Source of the DNA: Escherichia phage Es2
Sequence record: OR515477.1
Length of the DNA: 64,000 nucleotides
Strand: one strand, 5' to 3'
The position numbers were made by a program, and so were the translations under genes. The notes beneath the pieces were generated by a model, which saw nothing but the letters and a program-made list of their open reading frames with translations, did not search any database and was not told the DNA's origin. How positions within the stretch are numbered: position 1 is the stretch's first letter; each line of letters starts with the position of its first letter. Of this stretch, positions 4,964 through 13,651 are shown piece by piece.

Positions 4964-5206
4964 TTACGATTCCTTGAGCAAAGAAGCAAGTTCAGCATAG
5001 ACTTTATCTAACTCAAAGCCTACGCGAAGAGACACGTTAGTTTTCCGTTGTTTAAGTAACCACTCGGATATGTTAGGGATGCCAGCTAGTCTATGCGGTA
5101 CCACCCTACATAGCTTTTCCGAAGTGTCGTAAACAGGAACTTTACGTTCTTTTACTGGAAACTTCCTTGTTTCCCATTTTTTATTCTTCACTGTCATTTC
5201 TAGCAC
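4964..5206 (-). CDS. hypothetical protein
   Basis: Six-frame ORF, 80 aa. Confidence 0.4.
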   Translation of the reverse strand: MLEMTVKNKKWETRKFPVKERKVPVYDTSEKLCRVVPHRLAGIPNISEWLLKQRKTNVSLRVGFELDKVYAELASLLKES

Positions 5207-7970
5207 CTAGCTCTGCCATTGCTTCATCATGCATATGTTTTTCCTCGTCAGTCATGAATTTATAAGGAATTGGCATACACTCGATTTTACAATAAGTTCT
5301 GTACCAGTCTACGATATTTTCAGTGTTCATATCTTTGCCAATACCCATCATACCAAGATACATTCTGGCATATTTTGGGTTAGCACTCTGACCTGTTTTA
5401 AGGAAGAAATCTTTCTTCTTACCTTTCAGAGCTTCTATGAATGGTTTGATAGTGACATTTGAACACTTCTTAATATCTTCCCAGAACATCTCATGCATCT
5501 TATGGAAGAACGCAGCTCGATCATTAGGTTTATCCTTGATATATTGTTCAACATGCTCAACTGTTACATCTTTAATAGACTCAAGATGATAATAGCGAAC
5601 AAGAAGTAGTTTAGCTTCATACGCATCTGCATGGCGTGGAGCACAATAGTCCGGAGTTGAGTGCAGAATAGCTTTGATTCGCTCTTCTGTATACTCTTTT
5701 CCTGCACCTTCGATAGTTCCCCAGCTTTCACTGAAAATATCAATAGTTGCTCCCTGATCAAGCAAGTAATAGCGTAAAGTACTAGTGTAGTTCCTAGATT
5801 CCAGCTCCCTACGACGTGCGTATAATTGCTGTGCTAACTCCAGCCAACCTTCATCAATGTTATATTGTTCAGAACCTGCTGAGAATCCACTCGTAGATTT
5901 ATCAATAAAATAATAAATGTTCTGAGCGCCACGGTCGCGCCTGATTGCTTGGAAACGCATGTTTGGCGCTTGATTACTGGTTCTAGTAATAACGAATACG
6001 TTATCAAAATAGTTAAAGTCAACGCCACTCGTTACGGATGGACTACATAATAAGCAATCAATTTGTTGATCAATTAGCTCATTAGTTGTGTAATCCAGAA
6101 TACGTCTAATATCTACATCAGACGTAGAATTTGAGTGAATTTCCTTAACTAACGCACCCGTATTACGACGCAGTGCCATACCCTTCTCATTCAGCTCATC
6201 AGGGCCACAGTCAGATACTAGAATAGACTTCTCCCCCATCTCTAGTGATGTTTGGAGTGCAACCCAAATACTAGATTCATCAGGAAACTCATAAGCATGG
6301 GCTTTTGACAGCATCTTACGGTGATGATTATAAAATGCGACCGGTTTATCAAACTCAATTAAAGAACCATATGCTTCAATTGTTTCTGCACTAATGTCCC
6401 CATCAGATAATATAATGATTTTTGCAGTTGCAAGAATATCCCGAAGAACCTGAATACATTCACGACGTTGCTTAACAACCGGGGCGAATAACAGGTCATT
6501 CATTACAGCATCACATTCATCGATAAAGATTGCATCTATTTGACCAATAAAACTCTTGAATTTATGCAAAGAGTGAATAGTTGTGGACATACGGTCAATA
6601 GCACCACGCTTAAAATTAAGCATATCTACAGACTTATCGTATTGTCCTGCACTAAATTTCTTAGCATTTGAGGATACCAGTGCTCGAGTATTGGTAATTG
6701 CTAAGAAATTACCTTTAATAACTCCCGAATCTAACCAACGCACAACCGCCGTAGTTTTACCTGTACCTAGACTTGCTTTTACAAAAGTCATATAGCCTTC
6801 TGGTGGTACAGTATTTAATTTCAAGAAGTTATCAGTCTCTAAAGAGTTAGTTTCTAGCTTTTTAAGTGGAATACCTTTTAAAACATCAGGTATATCACGT
6901 TTAGAATTATTAACAAACGCTTTCAGAGCCTGTTTTCTACCATTATTAAAGTAATCTTGAATATTACGACTATTATCTTTAGTTGCAATATATTCTGATA
7001 AGGCTGGGCGGATTTCTTTTTCTAGCCATGCAAAGTCAACACCATCCTCTAAAGCTCTGTGATAGAGTTTAGGTATGATACGTAGATACACTCCATCCTC
7101 AGCTTCTTCTAGTTCGCTGATAGTTTCCTCTACTTTATCAGAGGCAGCTTTTTTACCCTTAATTTGGTCGAGTAAAGAGTAGAACTCTTCTTTAAACTCA
7201 CCTCTAGTTGTTTCATAGTCAACCAGATTATTGGGTAAATTTACTTTAGAACCCTTAACAAATACCAGACGTGAAGCACCCTCCGCTTTAAACGGATCTA
7301 CTATACCATCAGTAAATAAAGGATCTGCAAAATAATGGAGCTGTACGGAAGAGTAATAAGCTAAGTCGGCAATATCAAAGCCATACTTTTGTCTACTACT
7401 TTCGTTGATAGATGTAAATAAGAATTTGATTTGACCCTGAGTTACTTTAACATTAGATTCTAGTATTAAGTGCATTCGGATACCTGGTTTTAGCCCAGCC
7501 GAAGACGATGCGTGAGCGATAAACCCTGCATCAAGAGGAAACATATCCTCACTAATACTATTTAACATTCTAATAATATGTCGAGCCATGCCAACAAGAT
7601 CAAACTTGTTACAACCACCTGTATCTACAATACCATCCACGTCCATTGCAATTATATGACTTGGATTAGATACATTAAAGTTGCCCTTCTTACGTCGCAC
7701 ATTATTTTTAGGTGCAAGACATCGACCTCGTACCGCAACGATATGAGGGTCAGACGTTAAACGTCTCATAAGAGGAAGCATTTCTACTAGGGTTTGAGGA
7801 TCAACTTCATCAATTACATCAAACTTGAAGGGCATTGAAGCTGGTTTACCTTCAGGATGCTTTGAGGAAAATCTTTTAGCAAAAAGATAGTCTTCTGCTT
7901 TAACTTCTCGCCAAATGCCTGTGGCTAAATCGCGATGAAATCCTGCATGACCTTGTAGGATTGAGAACAC
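5181..7970 (-). CDS. SF2-like helicase/ATPase (Walker A GTGKTT, DECD box)
   Basis: Walker A LGTGKTT and Walker B-like IFIDECDAV; track ORF begins at a TTG (8048) but a GTG about 7 nt after an AGGAG at ~7970 is the better start (position +/-1). Confidence 0.6.
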   Translation of the reverse strand: MFSILQGHAGFHRDLATGIWREVKAEDYLFAKRFSSKHPEGKPASMPFKFDVIDEVDPQTLVEMLPLMRRLTSDPHIVAVRGRCLAPKNNVRRKKGNFNVSNPSHIIAMDVDGIVDTGGCNKFDLVGMARHIIRMLNSISEDMFPLDAGFIAHASSSAGLKPGIRMHLILESNVKVTQGQIKFLFTSINESSRQKYGFDIADLAYYSSVQLHYFADPLFTDGIVDPFKAEGASRLVFVKGSKVNLPNNLVDYETTRGEFKEEFYSLLDQIKGKKAASDKVEETISELEEAEDGVYLRIIPKLYHRALEDGVDFAWLEKEIRPALSEYIATKDNSRNIQDYFNNGRKQALKAFVNNSKRDIPDVLKGIPLKKLETNSLETDNFLKLNTVPPEGYMTFVKASLGTGKTTAVVRWLDSGVIKGNFLAITNTRALVSSNAKKFSAGQYDKSVDMLNFKRGAIDRMSTTIHSLHKFKSFIGQIDAIFIDECDAVMNDLLFAPVVKQRRECIQVLRDILATAKIIILSDGDISAETIEAYGSLIEFDKPVAFYNHHRKMLSKAHAYEFPDESSIWVALQTSLEMGEKSILVSDCGPDELNEKGMALRRNTGALVKEIHSNSTSDVDIRRILDYTTNELIDQQIDCLLCSPSVTSGVDFNYFDNVFVITRTSNQAPNMRFQAIRRDRGAQNIYYFIDKSTSGFSAGSEQYNIDEGWLELAQQLYARRRELESRNYTSTLRYYLLDQGATIDIFSESWGTIEGAGKEYTEERIKAILHSTPDYCAPRHADAYEAKLLLVRYYHLESIKDVTVEHVEQYIKDKPNDRAAFFHKMHEMFWEDIKKCSNVTIKPFIEALKGKKKDFFLKTGQSANPKYARMYLGMMGIGKDMNTENIVDWYRTYCKIECMPIPYKFMTDEEKHMHDEAMAELGARNDSEE

Positions 7971-8469
7971 AACAATACTCCTGTGTTGGAAATAAAATAA
8001 GTTTTCTTTAGGACTATTCAGAAAGAATAGAACAACTGTTACTGTCAATTTCTCAACAAATTAATCGCAAATACTGAAGGGGGGTGGCAACTTCCCCTTT
8101 CACGCTACACTGCCGCTTCACTATACCGCACAAATCCTTGAGGATGGCCGCTAAGCCAGATTTGCTCACCTAATGCTTCATGTACTAGCTCATACTAGGT
8201 GCAGTATACCTTACGTCATCACTTCTCAGAGTTTTTCACTCTTCCCGTCTCACTTCACAACCACCTCACACTAGGTTGCTTCGAGGCCTTACCAGGGTTC
8301 CTACGGGATGTAGATCGCTAAGTATTCTATTAACTATTTGTTTAAAAACTAACACGTAACAGTTAAAACAACCCTTAATGGGGCAGCCTAACTGTTCCGT
8401 ATCGCGGATTGTAAACAAGAAAAATTAGTAAAATCAATTTTTACTAATGTCTCTCAATTCAATATAAAT

Positions 8470-8498
8470 ATTATATCAAGATTTTGGGCATCCTGCAA
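8470..8498 (-). promoter_or_regulatory. early-type sigma70 promoter (minus strand) upstream of helicase leader
   Basis: Reverse complement TTGCAG, 17 bp, TATAAT, then TTTATATTGAATTGAGAG. Confidence 0.55.
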
Positions 8499-8589
8499 GT
8501 AAAATTTTCCAGATGGTGCTATCATTGGTCTTGGGTACGGATAAAACCGAGCCAAAATGACTCGGTAATCGGGGTTCAGCTAATAAAAA

Positions 8590-8982
8590 TCATTCATCAT
8601 TTAATCCCGGAACATAGATCCCAACACGGCTTAATTGTTCTTTAGCTTCTGCGAGAATATCTGGAGTGTACTCCCAAATATCATCTTCCACCCGTAAAAG
8701 ATGGGGTGAACAACCATCATCCGGCACACGACATATGGCCAGACCACGTGGATGGAACAAAGAGAAATTTAGGGCAACAATCAAGCCCATAGCAGACAAT
8801 TCATTCCAATCCAATTCCCGTTCCCCGGCATATCCAGACAGGAAAACACCAATGCAGGGGTCATCTATTTGCTGCTCCGGAAAAGTGAAGGAGGCTTGTC
8901 TTACCCCCAACCAACGTTGTAGTAGCTTCTCCGCACGTCTCACCAAACTAGGGTCAATCTGACGCCAATATACTTGTTCCAT
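8590..8982 (-). CDS. hypothetical protein, paralog of 8992-9420
   Basis: Shares PCIG, W.EL..MGL..ALN..LF.P and G..VPGL blocks with the adjacent ORF. Confidence 0.55.
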   Translation of the reverse strand: MEQVYWRQIDPSLVRRAEKLLQRWLGVRQASFTFPEQQIDDPCIGVFLSGYAGERELDWNELSAMGLIVALNFSLFHPRGLAICRVPDDGCSPHLLRVEDDIWEYTPDILAEAKEQLSRVGIYVPGLNDE

Positions 8983-8991
8983 TCTGCCTCC

Positions 8992-9420
8992 TTAAGCAGT
9001 TAAACCTGGGATCATATACCCGAAACGTCGAAGTTTCTGAATCCCCTCATTTACTTCTTCCGGTGAGTAAGACCAACCATAACGTTCATTAACCTGAAAA
9101 CCAGGAGATTCACTAGTCTTATAGTTAACAACGAGGCGATGCTTAGCAGGCATAAACAGCTTATAGTTTAACGCAAAAACTAAGCCCATTTCATCTAGCT
9201 CTTTCCAGCCCACAATCTCTTCAAGACCATCCTCTACCTGCACAATTAAACCAATACATGGGGCCTCATCAATATCATCTTTAAAAGCAAAGGAGATTTC
9301 GTTATTCTCACACCATATTTTCAAAAAGTTAATAGCCTCATTATACAGGCTAGCCGGGAGAGTACGCCAAAAGTTAACCAAAATTGGGTTAGCTTCTTTA
9401 GAGAATACATTATTGAACAT
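8992..9420 (-). CDS. hypothetical protein, paralog of 8590-8982
   Basis: Tandem paralog; same conserved blocks. Confidence 0.55.
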   Translation of the reverse strand: MFNNVFSKEANPILVNFWRTLPASLYNEAINFLKIWCENNEISFAFKDDIDEAPCIGLIVQVEDGLEEIVGWKELDEMGLVFALNYKLFMPAKHRLVVNYKTSESPGFQVNERYGWSYSPEEVNEGIQKLRRFGYMIPGLTA

Positions 9421-9422
9421 AC

Positions 9423-9929
9423 TTACACCTTAAATTGTTGTAAGGATTTACACATTTCAAGATCTGGGCTAAATTCTAGCATATAGCTAACAGCTTTTAA
9501 ATCTTGAAGATTTACCCCAGTCCTACCATTGACTATAACCGTTGGATACTGGTACATCATAGCACCAGCATCATCCAGCACACACCAATGTTTGAGCTTA
9601 TGCTTTTCAACGAAGCGAAGAACAGAATTACCCCTAGATAATCCACCCCCGGTAAAATCCGTTGTACCAAGAAAACGATCGATAAGACCTAATCCGGTCA
9701 TAATCTGAACGTTCTCCATCTCATTTCTGACAGAGAACCAAGATGATACCCCAACAATCATTATTGAAGAGGGACGAATAAAATCCTGAAAAGCCTTGAG
9801 AAGTGGCTTAAAAACCCAATCACTTCCGAAGAAGATCTTTTCATCATCCGGCGCATGGTGGTGCGAGATGCTCGAATTGAGCACCCCATCAATATCTAGA
9901 AAAATAACTGGAGTATTACTTATTTCCAT
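9423..9929 (-). CDS. HAD-superfamily phosphatase-like protein
   Basis: N-terminal FLDIDGVLN (DxDG[TV] HAD motif I). Confidence 0.55.
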   Translation of the reverse strand: MEISNTPVIFLDIDGVLNSSISHHHAPDDEKIFFGSDWVFKPLLKAFQDFIRPSSIMIVGVSSWFSVRNEMENVQIMTGLGLIDRFLGTTDFTGGGLSRGNSVLRFVEKHKLKHWCVLDDAGAMMYQYPTVIVNGRTGVNLQDLKAVSYMLEFSPDLEMCKSLQQFKV

Positions 9930-10098
9930 TTTTGTTCCTTTCTAAGAACGTATCATACTCAACCGTATCAACATATATGACACCATAGTCATCGGATTTA
10001 TAGTCCATTTCCCACAGCTCACAGCGATAACACCAACTACCATCCGCCCATACAAATATATCATCGGGATGTGTATATACAGATTTAACTATAGACAT
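9916..10098 (-). CDS. hypothetical protein
   Basis: 60 aa ORF overlapping neighbours by a few nt (coupled). Confidence 0.4.
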   Translation of the reverse strand: MSIVKSVYTHPDDIFVWADGSWCYRCELWEMDYKSDDYGVIYVDTVEYDTFLERNKNGNK

Positions 10099-10913
10099 AT
10101 TTGTTTCCCTGGCATATAAGGTCTACCCTCTAAATGAGCTTCCACACGAGCAATAAAATCAGGATCACTGAAAGCATCTACCGCACCTTTACTCCAGTAA
10201 GGGATACCACGTTCTTCCAACTGGTACATCTCACTACGAGTCATACCTTGATAGCCGGGCTCCGCTGCTAGAGCACTATCATAGTAGTTAACAACCATAA
10301 GTTTCGCAGCAGTCAAATTAAGAACAGGAAATAATTCCCAGTAGAAGTTAATTACTTGGTTAGAACAACCAACTACAATAATCATATCTTGACTGGTAAT
10401 ACTGTCAAAAACATTATACATTTCTGTGTATGCAGGAGCATGCTCTCCAAAGAAGATTACATTAGGTTTAACCCATTTATAATCATCTGGATCAATAGAA
10501 TTGTATCCTACGTCAATAATCCGTTTATTGCTACTATTATAGCTATCAGCTACAATAATCTCTTTTAAATATCCGTGAATGTGCAGAATGTCACTATGTG
10601 GAACGCCAGCACGTTCAATAAGGTCATCAACGTTAGTAGTCAAGTTTACTACTTGACCTGGATATTGTTTATACCATTCACCAATACGCAAATGCGCAAG
10701 ATTGGGTTCAACAGTTTTTAGCTCTTCACGACGTTTATTGTAAAATGCGTGAGTTTTATGATAAAAGTTACCACGAAAGGCATGAATATTACATACCTCT
10801 TCTAGATCATAATCATCCCACAATGCCTTACCGCTAGCAGTATCCGTACGGAAGGCTCGTACACCACTTTCAACGCTCAAACCTGCACCACTAATAATAA
10901 TTAATCTACGCAT
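10089..10913 (-). CDS. Sir2-family (sirtuin-like) NAD-dependent protein
   Basis: ISGAGLSVESGVRAFR (GAGIS..SGIP.FR-like), TNVDDLIERAG (TQNID.LH..AG-like) and HIHG motifs. Confidence 0.7.
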   Translation of the reverse strand: MRRLIIISGAGLSVESGVRAFRTDTASGKALWDDYDLEEVCNIHAFRGNFYHKTHAFYNKRREELKTVEPNLAHLRIGEWYKQYPGQVVNLTTNVDDLIERAGVPHSDILHIHGYLKEIIVADSYNSSNKRIIDVGYNSIDPDDYKWVKPNVIFFGEHAPAYTEMYNVFDSITSQDMIIVVGCSNQVINFYWELFPVLNLTAAKLMVVNYYDSALAAEPGYQGMTRSEMYQLEERGIPYWSKGAVDAFSDPDFIARVEAHLEGRPYMPGKQICL

Positions 10914-11734: not shown

Positions 11735-11770
11735 ATAAAATAAAAGCCAGGTCGACTAGCAACCCGGCTG
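11733..11770 (-). terminator. rho-independent terminator after nrdD (minus strand)
   Basis: Reverse complement AGCCGGGTTGCTAGTCGACCTGGCT followed by TTTATTTTATTT. Confidence 0.6.
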
Positions 11771-11776
11771 ATTAGC

Positions 11777-13651
11777 TTATTTAGCTCGAATATCCTGATG
11801 TTTCACTCTGCCCATAACCTCGTGCTGTTTGCCAGGGTTAAATGGACGAGCACCTGGATTTCCAAGATACCCACAAACTCGACGAGTTACTTCAAGAGTT
11901 TCGGGGTCATGATTACCACAGATAGGGCACTTAAATCCATCTTCGGATGCTACTGTTTCACCTAAGAATCCACATTTACCACAAGAATCCACTGGAGTAT
12001 TAATACCGAAGTAATGAACTTTACTAGCAGCATAATTAATAACCCATTCCAGTGCATCTGGGAATCGTTTCATATCTGGTAGTTCTACATAGGAAATGCA
12101 CCCACCAGAAGCAATCGGAGTAAAATTAGATTCATAATCAAATTTCACATTGGGAGCAACTTTGCGTTCTACATCAAGGTGGTGCGAGTTAGTGTAGTAA
12201 CCTTTACTAAGAATATCTTCATGCTCCGGGAAATATTCACGATCTAAACGGCAGAAACGATCACATAAGGATTCAGATGGTGTAGCATACAGGCTATAAC
12301 CTAACTTAGTTTCTTCCTTCTTCTGATCGACTCTATCCCGCATGTACTGCAATACACGCTGAACAAACTTGATGCAGGTATCGGACATTGTGTCTACATC
12401 TTTGCCAAACATGAACTGTAGCATTTCATGGCAACCAATATACCCTAGAGATACAGAAGCACGGTTATAGAAATGATCGAATACATATTCATCAGGCTCC
12501 AAGCGTAACCCAAAGGCTCCTGACATATAGAGGATGGGTGCAGCTTTAGCTTGGATGTATTTTAAGCGATCAACTCTCCACTCCAATGCTTTTAGCGCTG
12601 TATCCACACGTAGCTCAAGCAAATCAAAGAATAGATCAATATTTCCTTCAGCTTCGATAGCAATTCTAGGCAAGTTTACAGAAACAACACCTAAGTTATT
12701 ACGACCGGCAGTTTCACCATCTTCTGCAGCAGCTAGGAATGAACGACAGCCCATAGAAACTTTGTAGTCTCCAGTAACTTCTACAACCTTGTCATAGCTG
12801 ATATAATCTGGATACATACGTTCAGACGTACATTTCATAGCTAACTTCTTGATGTCATAATTAACATCCCCTGGTTTCATGTTAACGCCATCACGGAGTA
12901 CAAATACCAGTTTAGGGAAGATAGCTGTACGCTTATTGATACCTAAACCATCCATGCGTACTTTCAGTATTGCTTTCTGTACTAGACGTGCTTCCCAAGA
13001 AGTTCCTAGACCAAAACCAAAGGTAATAAATGGACTCTGACCATTAGAGTTGAACATGGTATTGATTTCATATTCTAAACCCTGACAAGCGTCATAGACT
13101 TCTTTTTCAGTCATCTCCGTAGCCATTACGGATGCTTTAGCTTCATCCTTAGTCCAACGTTTTGCAAACGCATGATTTTTGTCATAGGATTTACGAACAT
13201 AAGGGGCTAATACTTCATCAAGGCGATCTACAGAAGTACCACCATACTGATGGGAGCTAACCTGAGTGATAATCTGAGCAGTAATAGCCGCCGCAGTAGT
13301 GATAGAGTTTGGAGTGCTAATTTCAGCATTACCAACCTTCATACCATTCTTCAACATATCTTCCAGAGCTACCAGGCAACAGTTAGTCATGCCTAATGCA
13401 GCATAATCAGCATCATGGAAATGAATATCCCCAATCATATGAGCATTTCGAATCTGAATTGGCATTTCTTCTAGAATCAGATACTTACTCAATTCACCTG
13501 CAAGCATATCCCTTTGTGTAGGGAAACGTTCTGAGGGTTTATTGGCATTATTAAACAGCAGCTCTTCATCTGCTGACCCTTCGATAATCTCTTTGCAGTT
13601 TCTAATTAACGCCTGCATTTCTTTATACTTTAGTTCTTCATTGCGATTCAT
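11777..13651 (-). CDS. nrdD: anaerobic ribonucleoside-triphosphate reductase (class III RNR)
   Basis: C-terminal glycyl-radical motif TRRVCGYLG, Cys-rich CGKCGF..CPICG zinc site, 624 aa. Confidence 0.8.
   Translation of the reverse strand: MNRNEELKYKEMQALIRNCKEIIEGSADEELLFNNANKPSERFPTQRDMLAGELSKYLILEEMPIQIRNAHMIGDIHFHDADYAALGMTNCCLVALEDMLKNGMKVGNAEISTPNSITTAAAITAQIITQVSSHQYGGTSVDRLDEVLAPYVRKSYDKNHAFAKRWTKDEAKASVMATEMTEKEVYDACQGLEYEINTMFNSNGQSPFITFGFGLGTSWEARLVQKAILKVRMDGLGINKRTAIFPKLVFVLRDGVNMKPGDVNYDIKKLAMKCTSERMYPDYISYDKVVEVTGDYKVSMGCRSFLAAAEDGETAGRNNLGVVSVNLPRIAIEAEGNIDLFFDLLELRVDTALKALEWRVDRLKYIQAKAAPILYMSGAFGLRLEPDEYVFDHFYNRASVSLGYIGCHEMLQFMFGKDVDTMSDTCIKFVQRVLQYMRDRVDQKKEETKLGYSLYATPSESLCDRFCRLDREYFPEHEDILSKGYYTNSHHLDVERKVAPNVKFDYESNFTPIASGGCISYVELPDMKRFPDALEWVINYAASKVHYFGINTPVDSCGKCGFLGETVASEDGFKCPICGNHDPETLEVTRRVCGYLGNPGARPFNPGKQHEVMGRVKHQDIRAK

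What the first reader, a model, noticed from the sequence alone, without database searches (positions are those of the whole stretch)
8590..9420. Tandem paralogous genes of unknown function
ORFs 8992-9420 and 8590-8982 (minus strand) share conserved blocks (PCIG, W.EL..MGL..ALN..LF.P, W.Y.P, G..VPGL) but are otherwise diverged, indicating an old tandem duplication retained in a compact phage genome. Retention of both copies suggests sub-functionalisation, for example two specificities of an inhibitor or modifier.
Basis: seen in the sequence. Interest (0 to 1): 0.5.

Follow-up and report, generated by a model that had tools for sequence, protein, structure and literature searches.

The report
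Tandem DUF7415 gene pair in T5-like phage

Summary
ORFs 8590-8982(-) (130 aa) and 8992-9420(-) (142 aa) are 33% identical over 124 residues (BLASTP E=9e-22). The window is a T5-like phage, and the genes are orthologues of T5.107 and T5.106, annotated "conserved hypothetical".

Both belong to Pfam DUF7415 and PHROG 2502. Each protein contains two DUF7415 domains plus a C-terminal helix, so the locus holds four copies of one roughly 50-aa module.

The gene duplication is old. The upstream copies of Tequintavirus, Epseptimavirus, Sugarlandvirus and a metagenomic lineage form one clade (92/100 bootstraps). Both copies are under purifying selection (dN/dS 0.06-0.25).

The downstream copy keeps the family motif (WN..S..GL...N....HP.GLA..R...G.S). 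The upstream copy has lost it but is the more constrained of the two.

AlphaFold models are confident (pLDDT 87 and 91) and have the same order of secondary-structure elements. They match nothing in the PDB.

Elsewhere the domain occurs alone or fused to a MazG-like dNTP pyrophosphatase, thymidylate kinase, a 3'-5' exonuclease, ASCH and DUF5405. It often lies next to nrdD, nrdG, nudE or P2 gpA.

My best guess, at low confidence, is a non-catalytic binding or adaptor module of early phage nucleotide/DNA metabolism. An anti-defence role is not excluded. The feature is catalogued but uncharacterised, and of modest interest.

The parts
8992..9420 (-). Upstream paralogue, 142 aa, orthologue of T5.106. 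It has two DUF7415 domains plus a C-terminal helix. The canonical HP.GLA..R motif is lost (FMPAKHRLVVN).
9235..9378 (-). N-terminal DUF7415 domain of the 142-aa protein (aa 15-62)
   Evidence: this half alone scores E=1.5e-19 against PF24187
9085..9213 (-). Second (middle) DUF7415 domain of the 142-aa protein (aa 70-112); degenerate motif
   Evidence: E=2.3e-14
8995..9063 (-). C-terminal helix and tail of the 142-aa protein (..QKLRRFGYMIPGLTA), the best conserved stretch within the T5.106-like clade
8590..8982 (-). Downstream paralogue, 130 aa, orthologue of T5.107. It has two DUF7415 domains plus a C-terminal helix. The middle domain keeps the canonical family motif (DWNELS.MGL..ALN....HPRGLA..R...G.SP).
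8821..8976 (-). N-terminal DUF7415 domain of the 130-aa protein (aa 3-54)
   Evidence: E=5.5e-16
8695..8814 (-). Second (middle) DUF7415 domain of the 130-aa protein (aa 57-96); canonical motif
   Evidence: E=5.6e-14
8540..8566 (-). Intrinsic-terminator-like hairpin plus U-tract that ends the operon
   Evidence: -13.5 kcal/mol, z=-2.35. A terminator is annotated at the homologous place in phage Lindwurm and in T5.
9423..9929 (-). Upstream neighbour in the same operon: HAD_SAK_2 phosphatase-like protein (T5.105 orthologue)
   Evidence: PF18143, E=4e-20
10089..10913 (-). Sir2-like protein of the same operon (T5.102 orthologue)
   Evidence: PF02146, E=9e-25
11777..13651 (-). 624-aa ORF at the position of nrdD (anaerobic ribonucleotide reductase). 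Its terminator-like site (11745-11769) precedes the operon that ends with the DUF7415 pair.
   Evidence: Assigned by synteny; not scanned against Pfam here.

Best explanation
The two genes are the T5.106 and T5.107 orthologues of a T5-like phage. They are the last two cistrons of an early operon (nrdD terminator / small genes / Sir2 / HAD / DUF7415 / DUF7415 / terminator). Each encodes an acidic protein (pI about 4.7) built as beta-alpha-beta-beta, beta-alpha-beta-beta, alpha. That is two DUF7415 modules in one chain, which I read as a covalent pseudo-dimer of a module that stand-alone family members probably form by homodimerising (inferred). History: a domain duplication came first, then a gene duplication before Tequintavirus, Epseptimavirus and Sugarlandvirus diverged (shown). 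The downstream copy keeps the ancestral conserved site in its second domain. The upstream copy has lost that site but is under strong constraint and carries its own conserved C-terminal LRRFGY.IPGLT motif (shown). Proposed mechanism (inferred, low confidence): DUF7415 is a non-catalytic binding or adaptor module that recognises one conserved partner. That partner would be a host or phage hub protein of replication/nucleotide metabolism, or a nucleotide-derived ligand. Phages use the module alone or as a tether on nucleotide/DNA enzymes. In T5-like phages the canonical copy would carry the ancestral binding function, and the diverged copy would act as a specialised partner, possibly in a heteromer with it.
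For: Paralogy. Two DUF7415 domains per protein. Same order of secondary-structure elements in two confident models (pLDDT 87.2 and 90.6, pTM 0.81 and 0.84). One ancient duplication: the upstream copies form one clade in 92/100 NJ bootstraps, and gene order is conserved in Sugarland and in locus L098. Purifying selection on both copies: dN/dS 0.06-0.13 (142 aa) and 0.08-0.25 (130 aa). Canonical versus degenerate motif. In the lineages sampled, the degenerate copy is always accompanied by a canonical one, while single-copy lineages (DU_PP_V, L100) keep the canonical type. Acidic throughout the family, median pI 4.8, which argues against nucleic-acid binding. Most conserved residues are G, P, D and N, which I infer to lie at turns, plus core aromatics. 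Fusions to PF04447 dATP/dGTP pyrophosphohydrolase, thymidylate kinase, Rv2179c-like 3'-5' exonuclease, DUF3850/ASCH, DUF5405, DUF551 and others. Neighbours: between nrdD and nrdG in two T4-like genera, after nudE, and after P2 gpA and orf91. Present in about 525 phage records, nearly all with both copies.
Against: There is no experimental datum and no characterised homologue. Sequence and fold searches return only DUF7415 members. No partner or ligand has been identified. Several polar residues (N, S, N, H, R, S, D) are strongly conserved and could equally form a catalytic or ligand pocket. In Pseudomonas P2-like prophages the gene sits in the late operon between gpL and gpX, which looks like a moron rather than a metabolic gene. 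A census of neighbours in 80 IMG/VR loci is heterogeneous. Heteromer formation was not tested. The genes are absent from Providencia and Vibrio T5-like phages, so they are not needed for T5-type replication as such.
Confidence: 0.35

Rival explanations
1. Anti-defence pair. DUF7415 proteins would be small early inhibitors of host immunity. The duplicated, diverged T5 copies would neutralise two different targets, or one copy would act as a decoy.
For: The proteins are small, acidic, early-expressed and phage-restricted. The family is scattered over unrelated phages (T5-like, T4-like, P2-like, Pseudomonas prophages), in moron-like positions or next to the P2 old/tin variable region. A tandem duplication with one strongly diverged copy fits this idea. 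The genes are dispensable for some Demerecviridae.
Against: dN/dS is low and the genes are near-universal and syntenic in about 525 T5-like genomes. The core motif is extremely conserved between very distant phages, which suggests a conserved target rather than fast-evolving immune proteins. The domain is fused to housekeeping-type nucleotide/DNA enzymes. The fold matches no solved anti-defence protein. The known T5-family anti-retron Rad is a different gene.
Confidence: 0.25
2. Nucleotide- or signal-binding domain, or a small enzyme. The conserved W/N/S/N/H/R/S/D/Y residues would form a pocket at a dimer or pseudo-dimer interface. The pocket would bind, or act on, a nucleotide-derived molecule such as a dNTP, an NAD derivative or an immune second messenger. 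T5.107 would be the active form and T5.106 a pseudo-enzyme or regulatory partner.
For: Polar residues are invariant or nearly so across more than 100 diverse members. The domain is fused or adjacent to enzymes that act on nucleotides: MazG-like pyrophosphatase, Tmk, 3'-5' exoribonuclease-like, ASCH, HAD, NudE, NrdD/NrdG and Sir2. One of the two T5 copies has lost exactly these residues.
Against: The domain has only about 50 residues and a single conserved basic residue, which is poor for binding phosphates. Many conserved positions are G/P/D-G, which I infer to be structural turns. There is no similarity to any known nucleotide-binding fold or sponge. The copy that lost the residues is the more constrained one.
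Confidence: 0.2
3. Nucleic-acid-binding regulator, exonuclease or virion protein, as some GenBank records state ('Phage exonuclease (ACLAME 70)', 'tail tube protein', 'RNA-binding protein').
For: The only support is the annotation strings.
Against: The proteins have no exonuclease, tail or nucleic-acid-binding domain. The 'exonuclease' label is explained by proteins in which a complete Rv2179c-like exonuclease domain is fused to a separate DUF7415 domain. pI is about 4.7. The genes lie in an early operon, not the structural module.
Confidence: 0.03

Closest known systems
Phage T5 genes T5.106 and T5.107 (AAS77152, AAS77153; AY543070)
   Same: They are orthologues: 93% and 95% amino-acid identity, the same order, the same operon (Sir2 / small genes / HAD / 106 / 107 / terminator / origin-binding protein gene), and the same lengths of 142 and 130 aa.
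   Different: Nothing of substance differs. The window's phage is nearer to phiLLS (97% DNA identity). T5 annotates both only as 'conserved hypothetical protein'.
Pfam PF24187 (DUF7415) / PHROG 2502, with PHROGs 3954, 33705 and 1812 for single-domain and fused forms
   Same: Both proteins score far above the Pfam cut-off, and each half of each protein matches on its own.
   Different: Most family members have a single domain of 60-100 aa, or have the domain fused to other domains. The T5-type proteins carry two domains plus a C-terminal helix ending in PGL. The 142-aa copy lacks the family's HP.GLA..R motif.
P2-like phage early-region gene orf92 of phage Wphi (downstream of gpA and orf91/DUF3850)
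   Same: It contains one DUF7415 domain and is co-transcribed with replication genes. Fusions of DUF3850/ASCH or DUF5405 with DUF7415 occur in relatives.
   Different: It has a single domain and is not duplicated. It lies in a temperate-phage early operon at the edge of the old/tin variable region.
Enzyme/pseudo-enzyme or active/degenerate paralogue pairs; covalent pseudo-dimers of small dimeric domains (for example ACT-like or ferredoxin-like regulatory modules)

Membership tests
Pfam DUF7415 (PF24187) | Match to the family HMM above the gathering score (27 bits) | tested here: met
   107.9 bits (130 aa) and 121.7 bits (142 aa). The N- and C-terminal halves match separately at 52.5-70.3 bits.
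Pfam DUF7415 (PF24187) | Conserved core motif W-N-x2-S-x2-G-L-x4-N-x4-H-P-x-G-L-A-x2-R...G-x-S...W-x-Y, derived here from about 138 representative domains | tested here: met
   The motif is met by the middle domain of the 130-aa protein. It is not met by the 142-aa protein (N>K, S>D, H>M, G>K, A>R, R>V) or by either N-terminal domain.
PHROG 2502 (T5-type two-domain proteins) | Full-length match to the PHROG profile | tested here: met
   E=5.1e-59 (residues 1-129) and E=9.8e-63 (residues 11-142). The PHROG has no assigned function.
Phage exonuclease ('ACLAME 70', Rv2179c-like/DEDD 3'-5' exonucleases) | Presence of the exonuclease catalytic domain | tested here: not met
   The window proteins have no exonuclease domain in Pfam, PHROG or NCBIfam. 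In fusion proteins the exonuclease domain (PF16473, positions 1-177) is separate from the DUF7415 part.
Tail tube protein (annotation in some GenBank records) | Similarity to tail tube families and location in the structural module | tested here: not met
   There is no such hit. The genes lie in the early operon between nrdD and the origin-binding protein gene.
Known anti-defence proteins with solved structures (signal sponges, DNA mimics and the like) | Sequence or fold similarity to a solved member | tested here: not met
Known anti-defence proteins | Experimental inhibition of a defence system | not testable with these tools
   The searchable literature does not mention DUF7415 or T5.105, T5.106 or T5.107.
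Anti-phage defence system components (PADLOC) | Match to a PADLOC model | tested here: not met
   No families matched for either protein.

The most novel reading that the evidence does not exclude
DUF7415 would be a new small fold that binds a nucleotide-derived signal or a universal host hub. Phages would deploy it alone, as a sponge or blocker, or bolt it onto pyrophosphatases, kinases and exonucleases to aim them at that target. The T5 pair would then be a canonical binder plus a re-specialised paralogue, that is, a previously unrecognised and widespread counter-defence or pool-control module present in T5-, T4- and P2-like phages.
Probability: 0.12. Interest if true: 0.75.

Novelty: already known. 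Interest (0 to 1): 0.3.

Why it matters
The genes are catalogued (T5.106 and T5.107; Pfam DUF7415; PHROG 2502), so the finding is not a discovery. The family is nonetheless a well-defined blank. It occurs in more than 800 sequenced phages of three unrelated groups, including the model phage T5. Its models are confident but match no solved fold, its motif is strikingly conserved, and it is repeatedly fused or adjacent to nucleotide/DNA enzymes. The canonical/degenerate pair in T5 is a ready-made genetic handle (delete one copy, the other, or both) for assigning a function to the whole family.

Tried and rejected
- **C-terminal helix as a third partial repeat of the N-terminal helix:** hhalign gave only 15 aligned columns and 7-13% probability, so I rejected it.
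- **Remnant second copies in single-copy lineages:** the 86-aa gene in L100 and the 83-aa gene in DU_PP_V show no DUF7415 signal.
- **General functional link to Sir2:** Sir2 and DUF7415 co-occur or are co-absent within the Demerecviridae sampled. However, Sir2 homologues are widespread in other large phages such as the 4MG-, rV5- and KVP40-type groups, which were not among the records matched by the DUF7415 search. T4- and P2-like DUF7415 genes are not next to Sir2. No general link follows.
- **Identity with the T5-family anti-retron Rad:** Rad is a different gene, 189 aa, in the tRNA region. The Clover/dNTP paper does not involve these genes.
- **Locus search:** The search for related loci with the broad alignment failed and worked with a narrower one.
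- **Other:** Rfam found nothing around the locus. The neighbour census gave no single dominant partner family.

Full report
**1. Observation**

The window is a T5-like phage of the Demerecviridae. The 1.2-kb region is 97% identical to Escherichia phage phiLLS, and more than 420 phage records cover at least 80% of it.

ORFs 8590-8982(-) (130 aa) and 8992-9420(-) (142 aa) are present as described. They align over 124 residues with 33% identity and one gap, E=9e-22. Two corrections apply:
- The last block is G-x-x-[VI]-P-G-L rather than G..VPGL.
- PCIG is not conserved among orthologues of the 130-aa copy.

The genes are the orthologues of T5.106 (142 aa) and T5.107 (130 aa), both annotated 'conserved hypothetical protein' in AY543070.

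They are the last two cistrons of an operon that begins after the nrdD terminator and ends at a hairpin terminator at about 8540-8566(-). A terminator is annotated at the same place in Lindwurm and T5. The upstream genes are small ORFs, a Sir2-like protein (10089-10913), a 60-aa ORF and a HAD_SAK_2 phosphatase-like protein (9423-9929). Stop and start codons are 2 and 9 nt apart, with Shine-Dalgarno sequences in between. Co-transcription and translational coupling are therefore likely, though inferred.

**2. What the proteins are**

Both proteins match Pfam DUF7415 (107.9 and 121.7 bits, cut-off 27) and PHROG 2502, which has no assigned function. NCBIfam, PADLOC and PDB sequence searches return nothing.

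Pfam reported two matching stretches per protein. Scanning the halves separately confirmed that each protein holds two DUF7415 domains:

| Protein | N-terminal domain | Second (middle) domain |
|---|---|---|
| 130 aa | aa 3-54, E=5.5e-16 | aa 57-96, E=5.6e-14 |
| 142 aa | aa 15-62, E=1.5e-19 | aa 70-112, E=2.3e-14 |

So the locus holds four copies of one roughly 50-aa module in two genes. Both paralogues share the two-domain-plus-helix plan. By parsimony, the domain duplication came before the gene duplication.

AlphaFold2 models are confident: pLDDT 87.2 and pTM 0.81 for the 142-aa protein, and pLDDT 90.6 and pTM 0.84 for the 130-aa protein. Both show the same order of elements: beta-alpha-beta-beta, beta-alpha-beta-beta, then a C-terminal helix.

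**3. The family**

An exhaustive HMMER search of 1.84 billion cluster representatives found 152 representatives at E<=1e-3. About 20 of them are full-length two-domain proteins. Most of the rest match only the core of the second domain.

From about 138 domain segments, the family consensus is IDWN..S..GL..RIN.EILHPLGLA..R.P.TG.S.G.LV..DG.WEY. G, L, N, H, P, G, A and S are conserved in at least 90% of members.

- The second domain of the 130-aa protein keeps all of these residues.
- The 142-aa protein has replaced N, S, H, G, A and R (FMPAKHRLVVN).
- Both N-terminal domains are degenerate.

Family members are acidic. The two window proteins have pI 4.6 and 4.7, and the median over 111 stand-alone members is 4.8.

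**4. Evolution**

Gene arrangements across the lineages examined:

| Lineage | Arrangement |
|---|---|
| Tequintavirus and Epseptimavirus (Markadamsvirinae) | about 525 records match, nearly all with two places each |
| Klebsiella phage Sugarland | degenerate upstream copy (gp118) plus canonical downstream copy (gp117) |
| Metagenomic T5-like contig L098 | degenerate upstream copy plus canonical downstream copy |
| Pectobacterium phage DU_PP_V | one copy, canonical |
| Contig L100 | one copy, canonical |
| Providencia PR1, Vibrio JSF10 | no Sir2, HAD or DUF7415 at this locus |

In an NJ tree the upstream (T5.106-like) copies of all these lineages form one clade in 92 of 100 bootstraps. The T5.107 core group is recovered in 99 and the Sugarland-gp117 group in 94. 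So a single duplication predates the split of these genera.

Pairwise dN/dS values show both copies under purifying selection, and the motif-less copy is the more constrained:

| Gene | dN/dS |
|---|---|
| 142-aa copy | 0.06-0.13 |
| 130-aa copy | 0.08-0.25 |
| HAD neighbour | 0.04-0.12 |

The most conserved feature across the T5.106-like clade is the C-terminal LRRFG[YF]..[PE]GLT.

The origin-binding protein gene is found in 906 phage records, including 357 Vibrio phages. The DUF7415 pair is therefore core to enterobacterial T5-like phages but not to the whole family Demerecviridae.

**5. Context and fusions elsewhere**

Stand-alone DUF7415 genes of 60-100 aa occur in several settings:
- Pseudomonas P2-like prophages, between gpL and gpX.
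- E. coli P2-like prophages and phage Wphi (orf92), after gpA and orf91/DUF3850.
- T4-like Slopekvirus and Pseudotevenvirus, after nudE.
- T4-like Jiaodavirus and Gualtarvirus, directly between nrdD and nrdG.

Fusion partners found:
- PF04447 dATP/dGTP pyrophosphohydrolase and thymidylate kinase.
- DUF3850/ASCH, DUF551, PGDYG and a ClpX-type zinc finger.
- A complete Rv2179c-like 3'-5' exoribonuclease domain, and DUF5405.

The exonuclease fusion explains the GenBank label 'Phage exonuclease (ACLAME 70)' on the T5-type genes. That label and 'tail tube protein' are annotation artefacts.

A census of the two neighbours on either side in 80 IMG/VR loci is heterogeneous. It includes gpA, DUF3850, DUF5405, DNA methyltransferases, RNR subunits and structural genes of P2-like phages.

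Sir2 homologues are common in other large phages. They were not among the records matched by the DUF7415 search. The Sir2 neighbourhood in T5-like phages is therefore probably inherited synteny.

**6. Mechanism**

Nothing is known experimentally. The searchable literature does not mention DUF7415 or T5.105, T5.106 or T5.107, and the T5-family anti-retron Rad is another gene.

My best-supported reading, at confidence about 0.35, is a non-catalytic binding or adaptor module.
- It would be dimeric when it stands alone and pseudo-dimeric in T5.
- It would recognise one conserved partner, either a hub protein of replication/nucleotide metabolism or a nucleotide-derived ligand.
- This would explain its promiscuous attachment to enzymes of that area.
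- T5.107 would keep the ancestral site, and T5.106 would be a re-specialised and strongly constrained partner.

Shown here:
- domain architecture;
- duplication history;
- selection on both copies;
- motif asymmetry between the copies;
- fusions and gene neighbourhoods;
- absence of a known fold.

Inferred:
- dimerisation of stand-alone domains;
- heteromer formation between the two T5 proteins;
- the binding function itself.

Rivals are an anti-defence pair (0.25), a ligand-binding pocket or small enzyme with a pseudo-enzyme partner (0.2), and the annotated exonuclease, tail or nucleic-acid-binding roles (0.03, effectively refuted).

**7. Novelty and verdict**

The genes and the family are catalogued (T5.106 and T5.107, PF24187, PHROG 2502), so the feature is already known as an uncharacterised family.

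What this analysis adds:
- the four-domain architecture of the locus;
- the canonical/degenerate asymmetry between the copies;
- the dating of the duplication;
- the list of fusions and neighbours;
- the origin of the misannotations.

Interest is modest (0.3). It is a clean and widespread gap in knowledge with an easy genetic handle in a model phage, but nothing here is surprising to a specialist.

Noticed in passing
window 8590-9420, and GenBank records: Orthologues of both genes are variously labelled 'Phage exonuclease (ACLAME 70)', 'putative exonuclease' or 'tail tube protein'. The exonuclease label is explained by unrelated proteins in which an Rv2179c-like exonuclease domain is fused to a DUF7415 domain (L072, 299 aa). 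I found no basis for 'tail tube protein'.
   Followed up: yes
window 9423-9929 (-): The HAD_SAK_2 phosphatase-like protein (T5.105 orthologue) is labelled 'Sir2 (NAD-dependent deacetylase)' in several RefSeq records, through PHROG 18062. Its Pfam match is the HAD domain of 'Swiss Army Knife' RNA-repair proteins. The true Sir2 gene (10089-10913) also hits PHROG 18062 weakly (E=1e-5).
   Followed up: partly
L009 (Klebsiella phage KPV15) 3986-4219; L102 (Morganella phage Rgz1) 2453-2848: In two genera of T4-like phages a DUF7415 gene sits exactly between nrdD and nrdG. In T5-like phages the DUF7415 operon starts right after nrdD. I did not test whether this recurring proximity to the anaerobic ribonucleotide reductase has a functional meaning.
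   Followed up: partly
window 5181-8048 (-) versus 8400-9600: The genome looks mosaic. The origin-binding/helicase-like protein is 99.8% identical to Salmonella phage MET_P1_179_112, whereas the DUF7415 region is closest (97% DNA identity) to Escherichia phage phiLLS. The listed 955-aa ORF starts at a TTG, and relatives annotate about 929 aa, so the true start is probably downstream.
   Followed up: no
window 8049-8589: A non-coding gap of about 540 bp lies between the operon terminator and the origin-binding protein gene. It contains an inverted repeat with 16-nt arms (8418-8433 / 8439-8454), a second with 12-nt arms (8354-8365 / 8389-8400), and a promoter-like site (8437-8408, minus strand). 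T5 annotates a promoter here. No Rfam match was found.
   Followed up: partly
L104 (Providencia phage PR1) 3654-4791; L105 (Vibrio phage JSF10) 3998-4327: These Demerecviridae have replaced the whole Sir2/HAD/DUF7415 block between nrdD and the origin-binding gene with other small hypothetical genes. This slot is therefore a variable cassette at the family level.
   Followed up: partly
window 9916-10098 (-): A 60-aa ORF (PHROG 5116, T5.104-like) lies between Sir2 and HAD in this phage and in T5. It is not annotated in phage Lindwurm, where the Sir2 and HAD genes overlap directly. This is a small presence/absence difference inside the operon.
   Followed up: no
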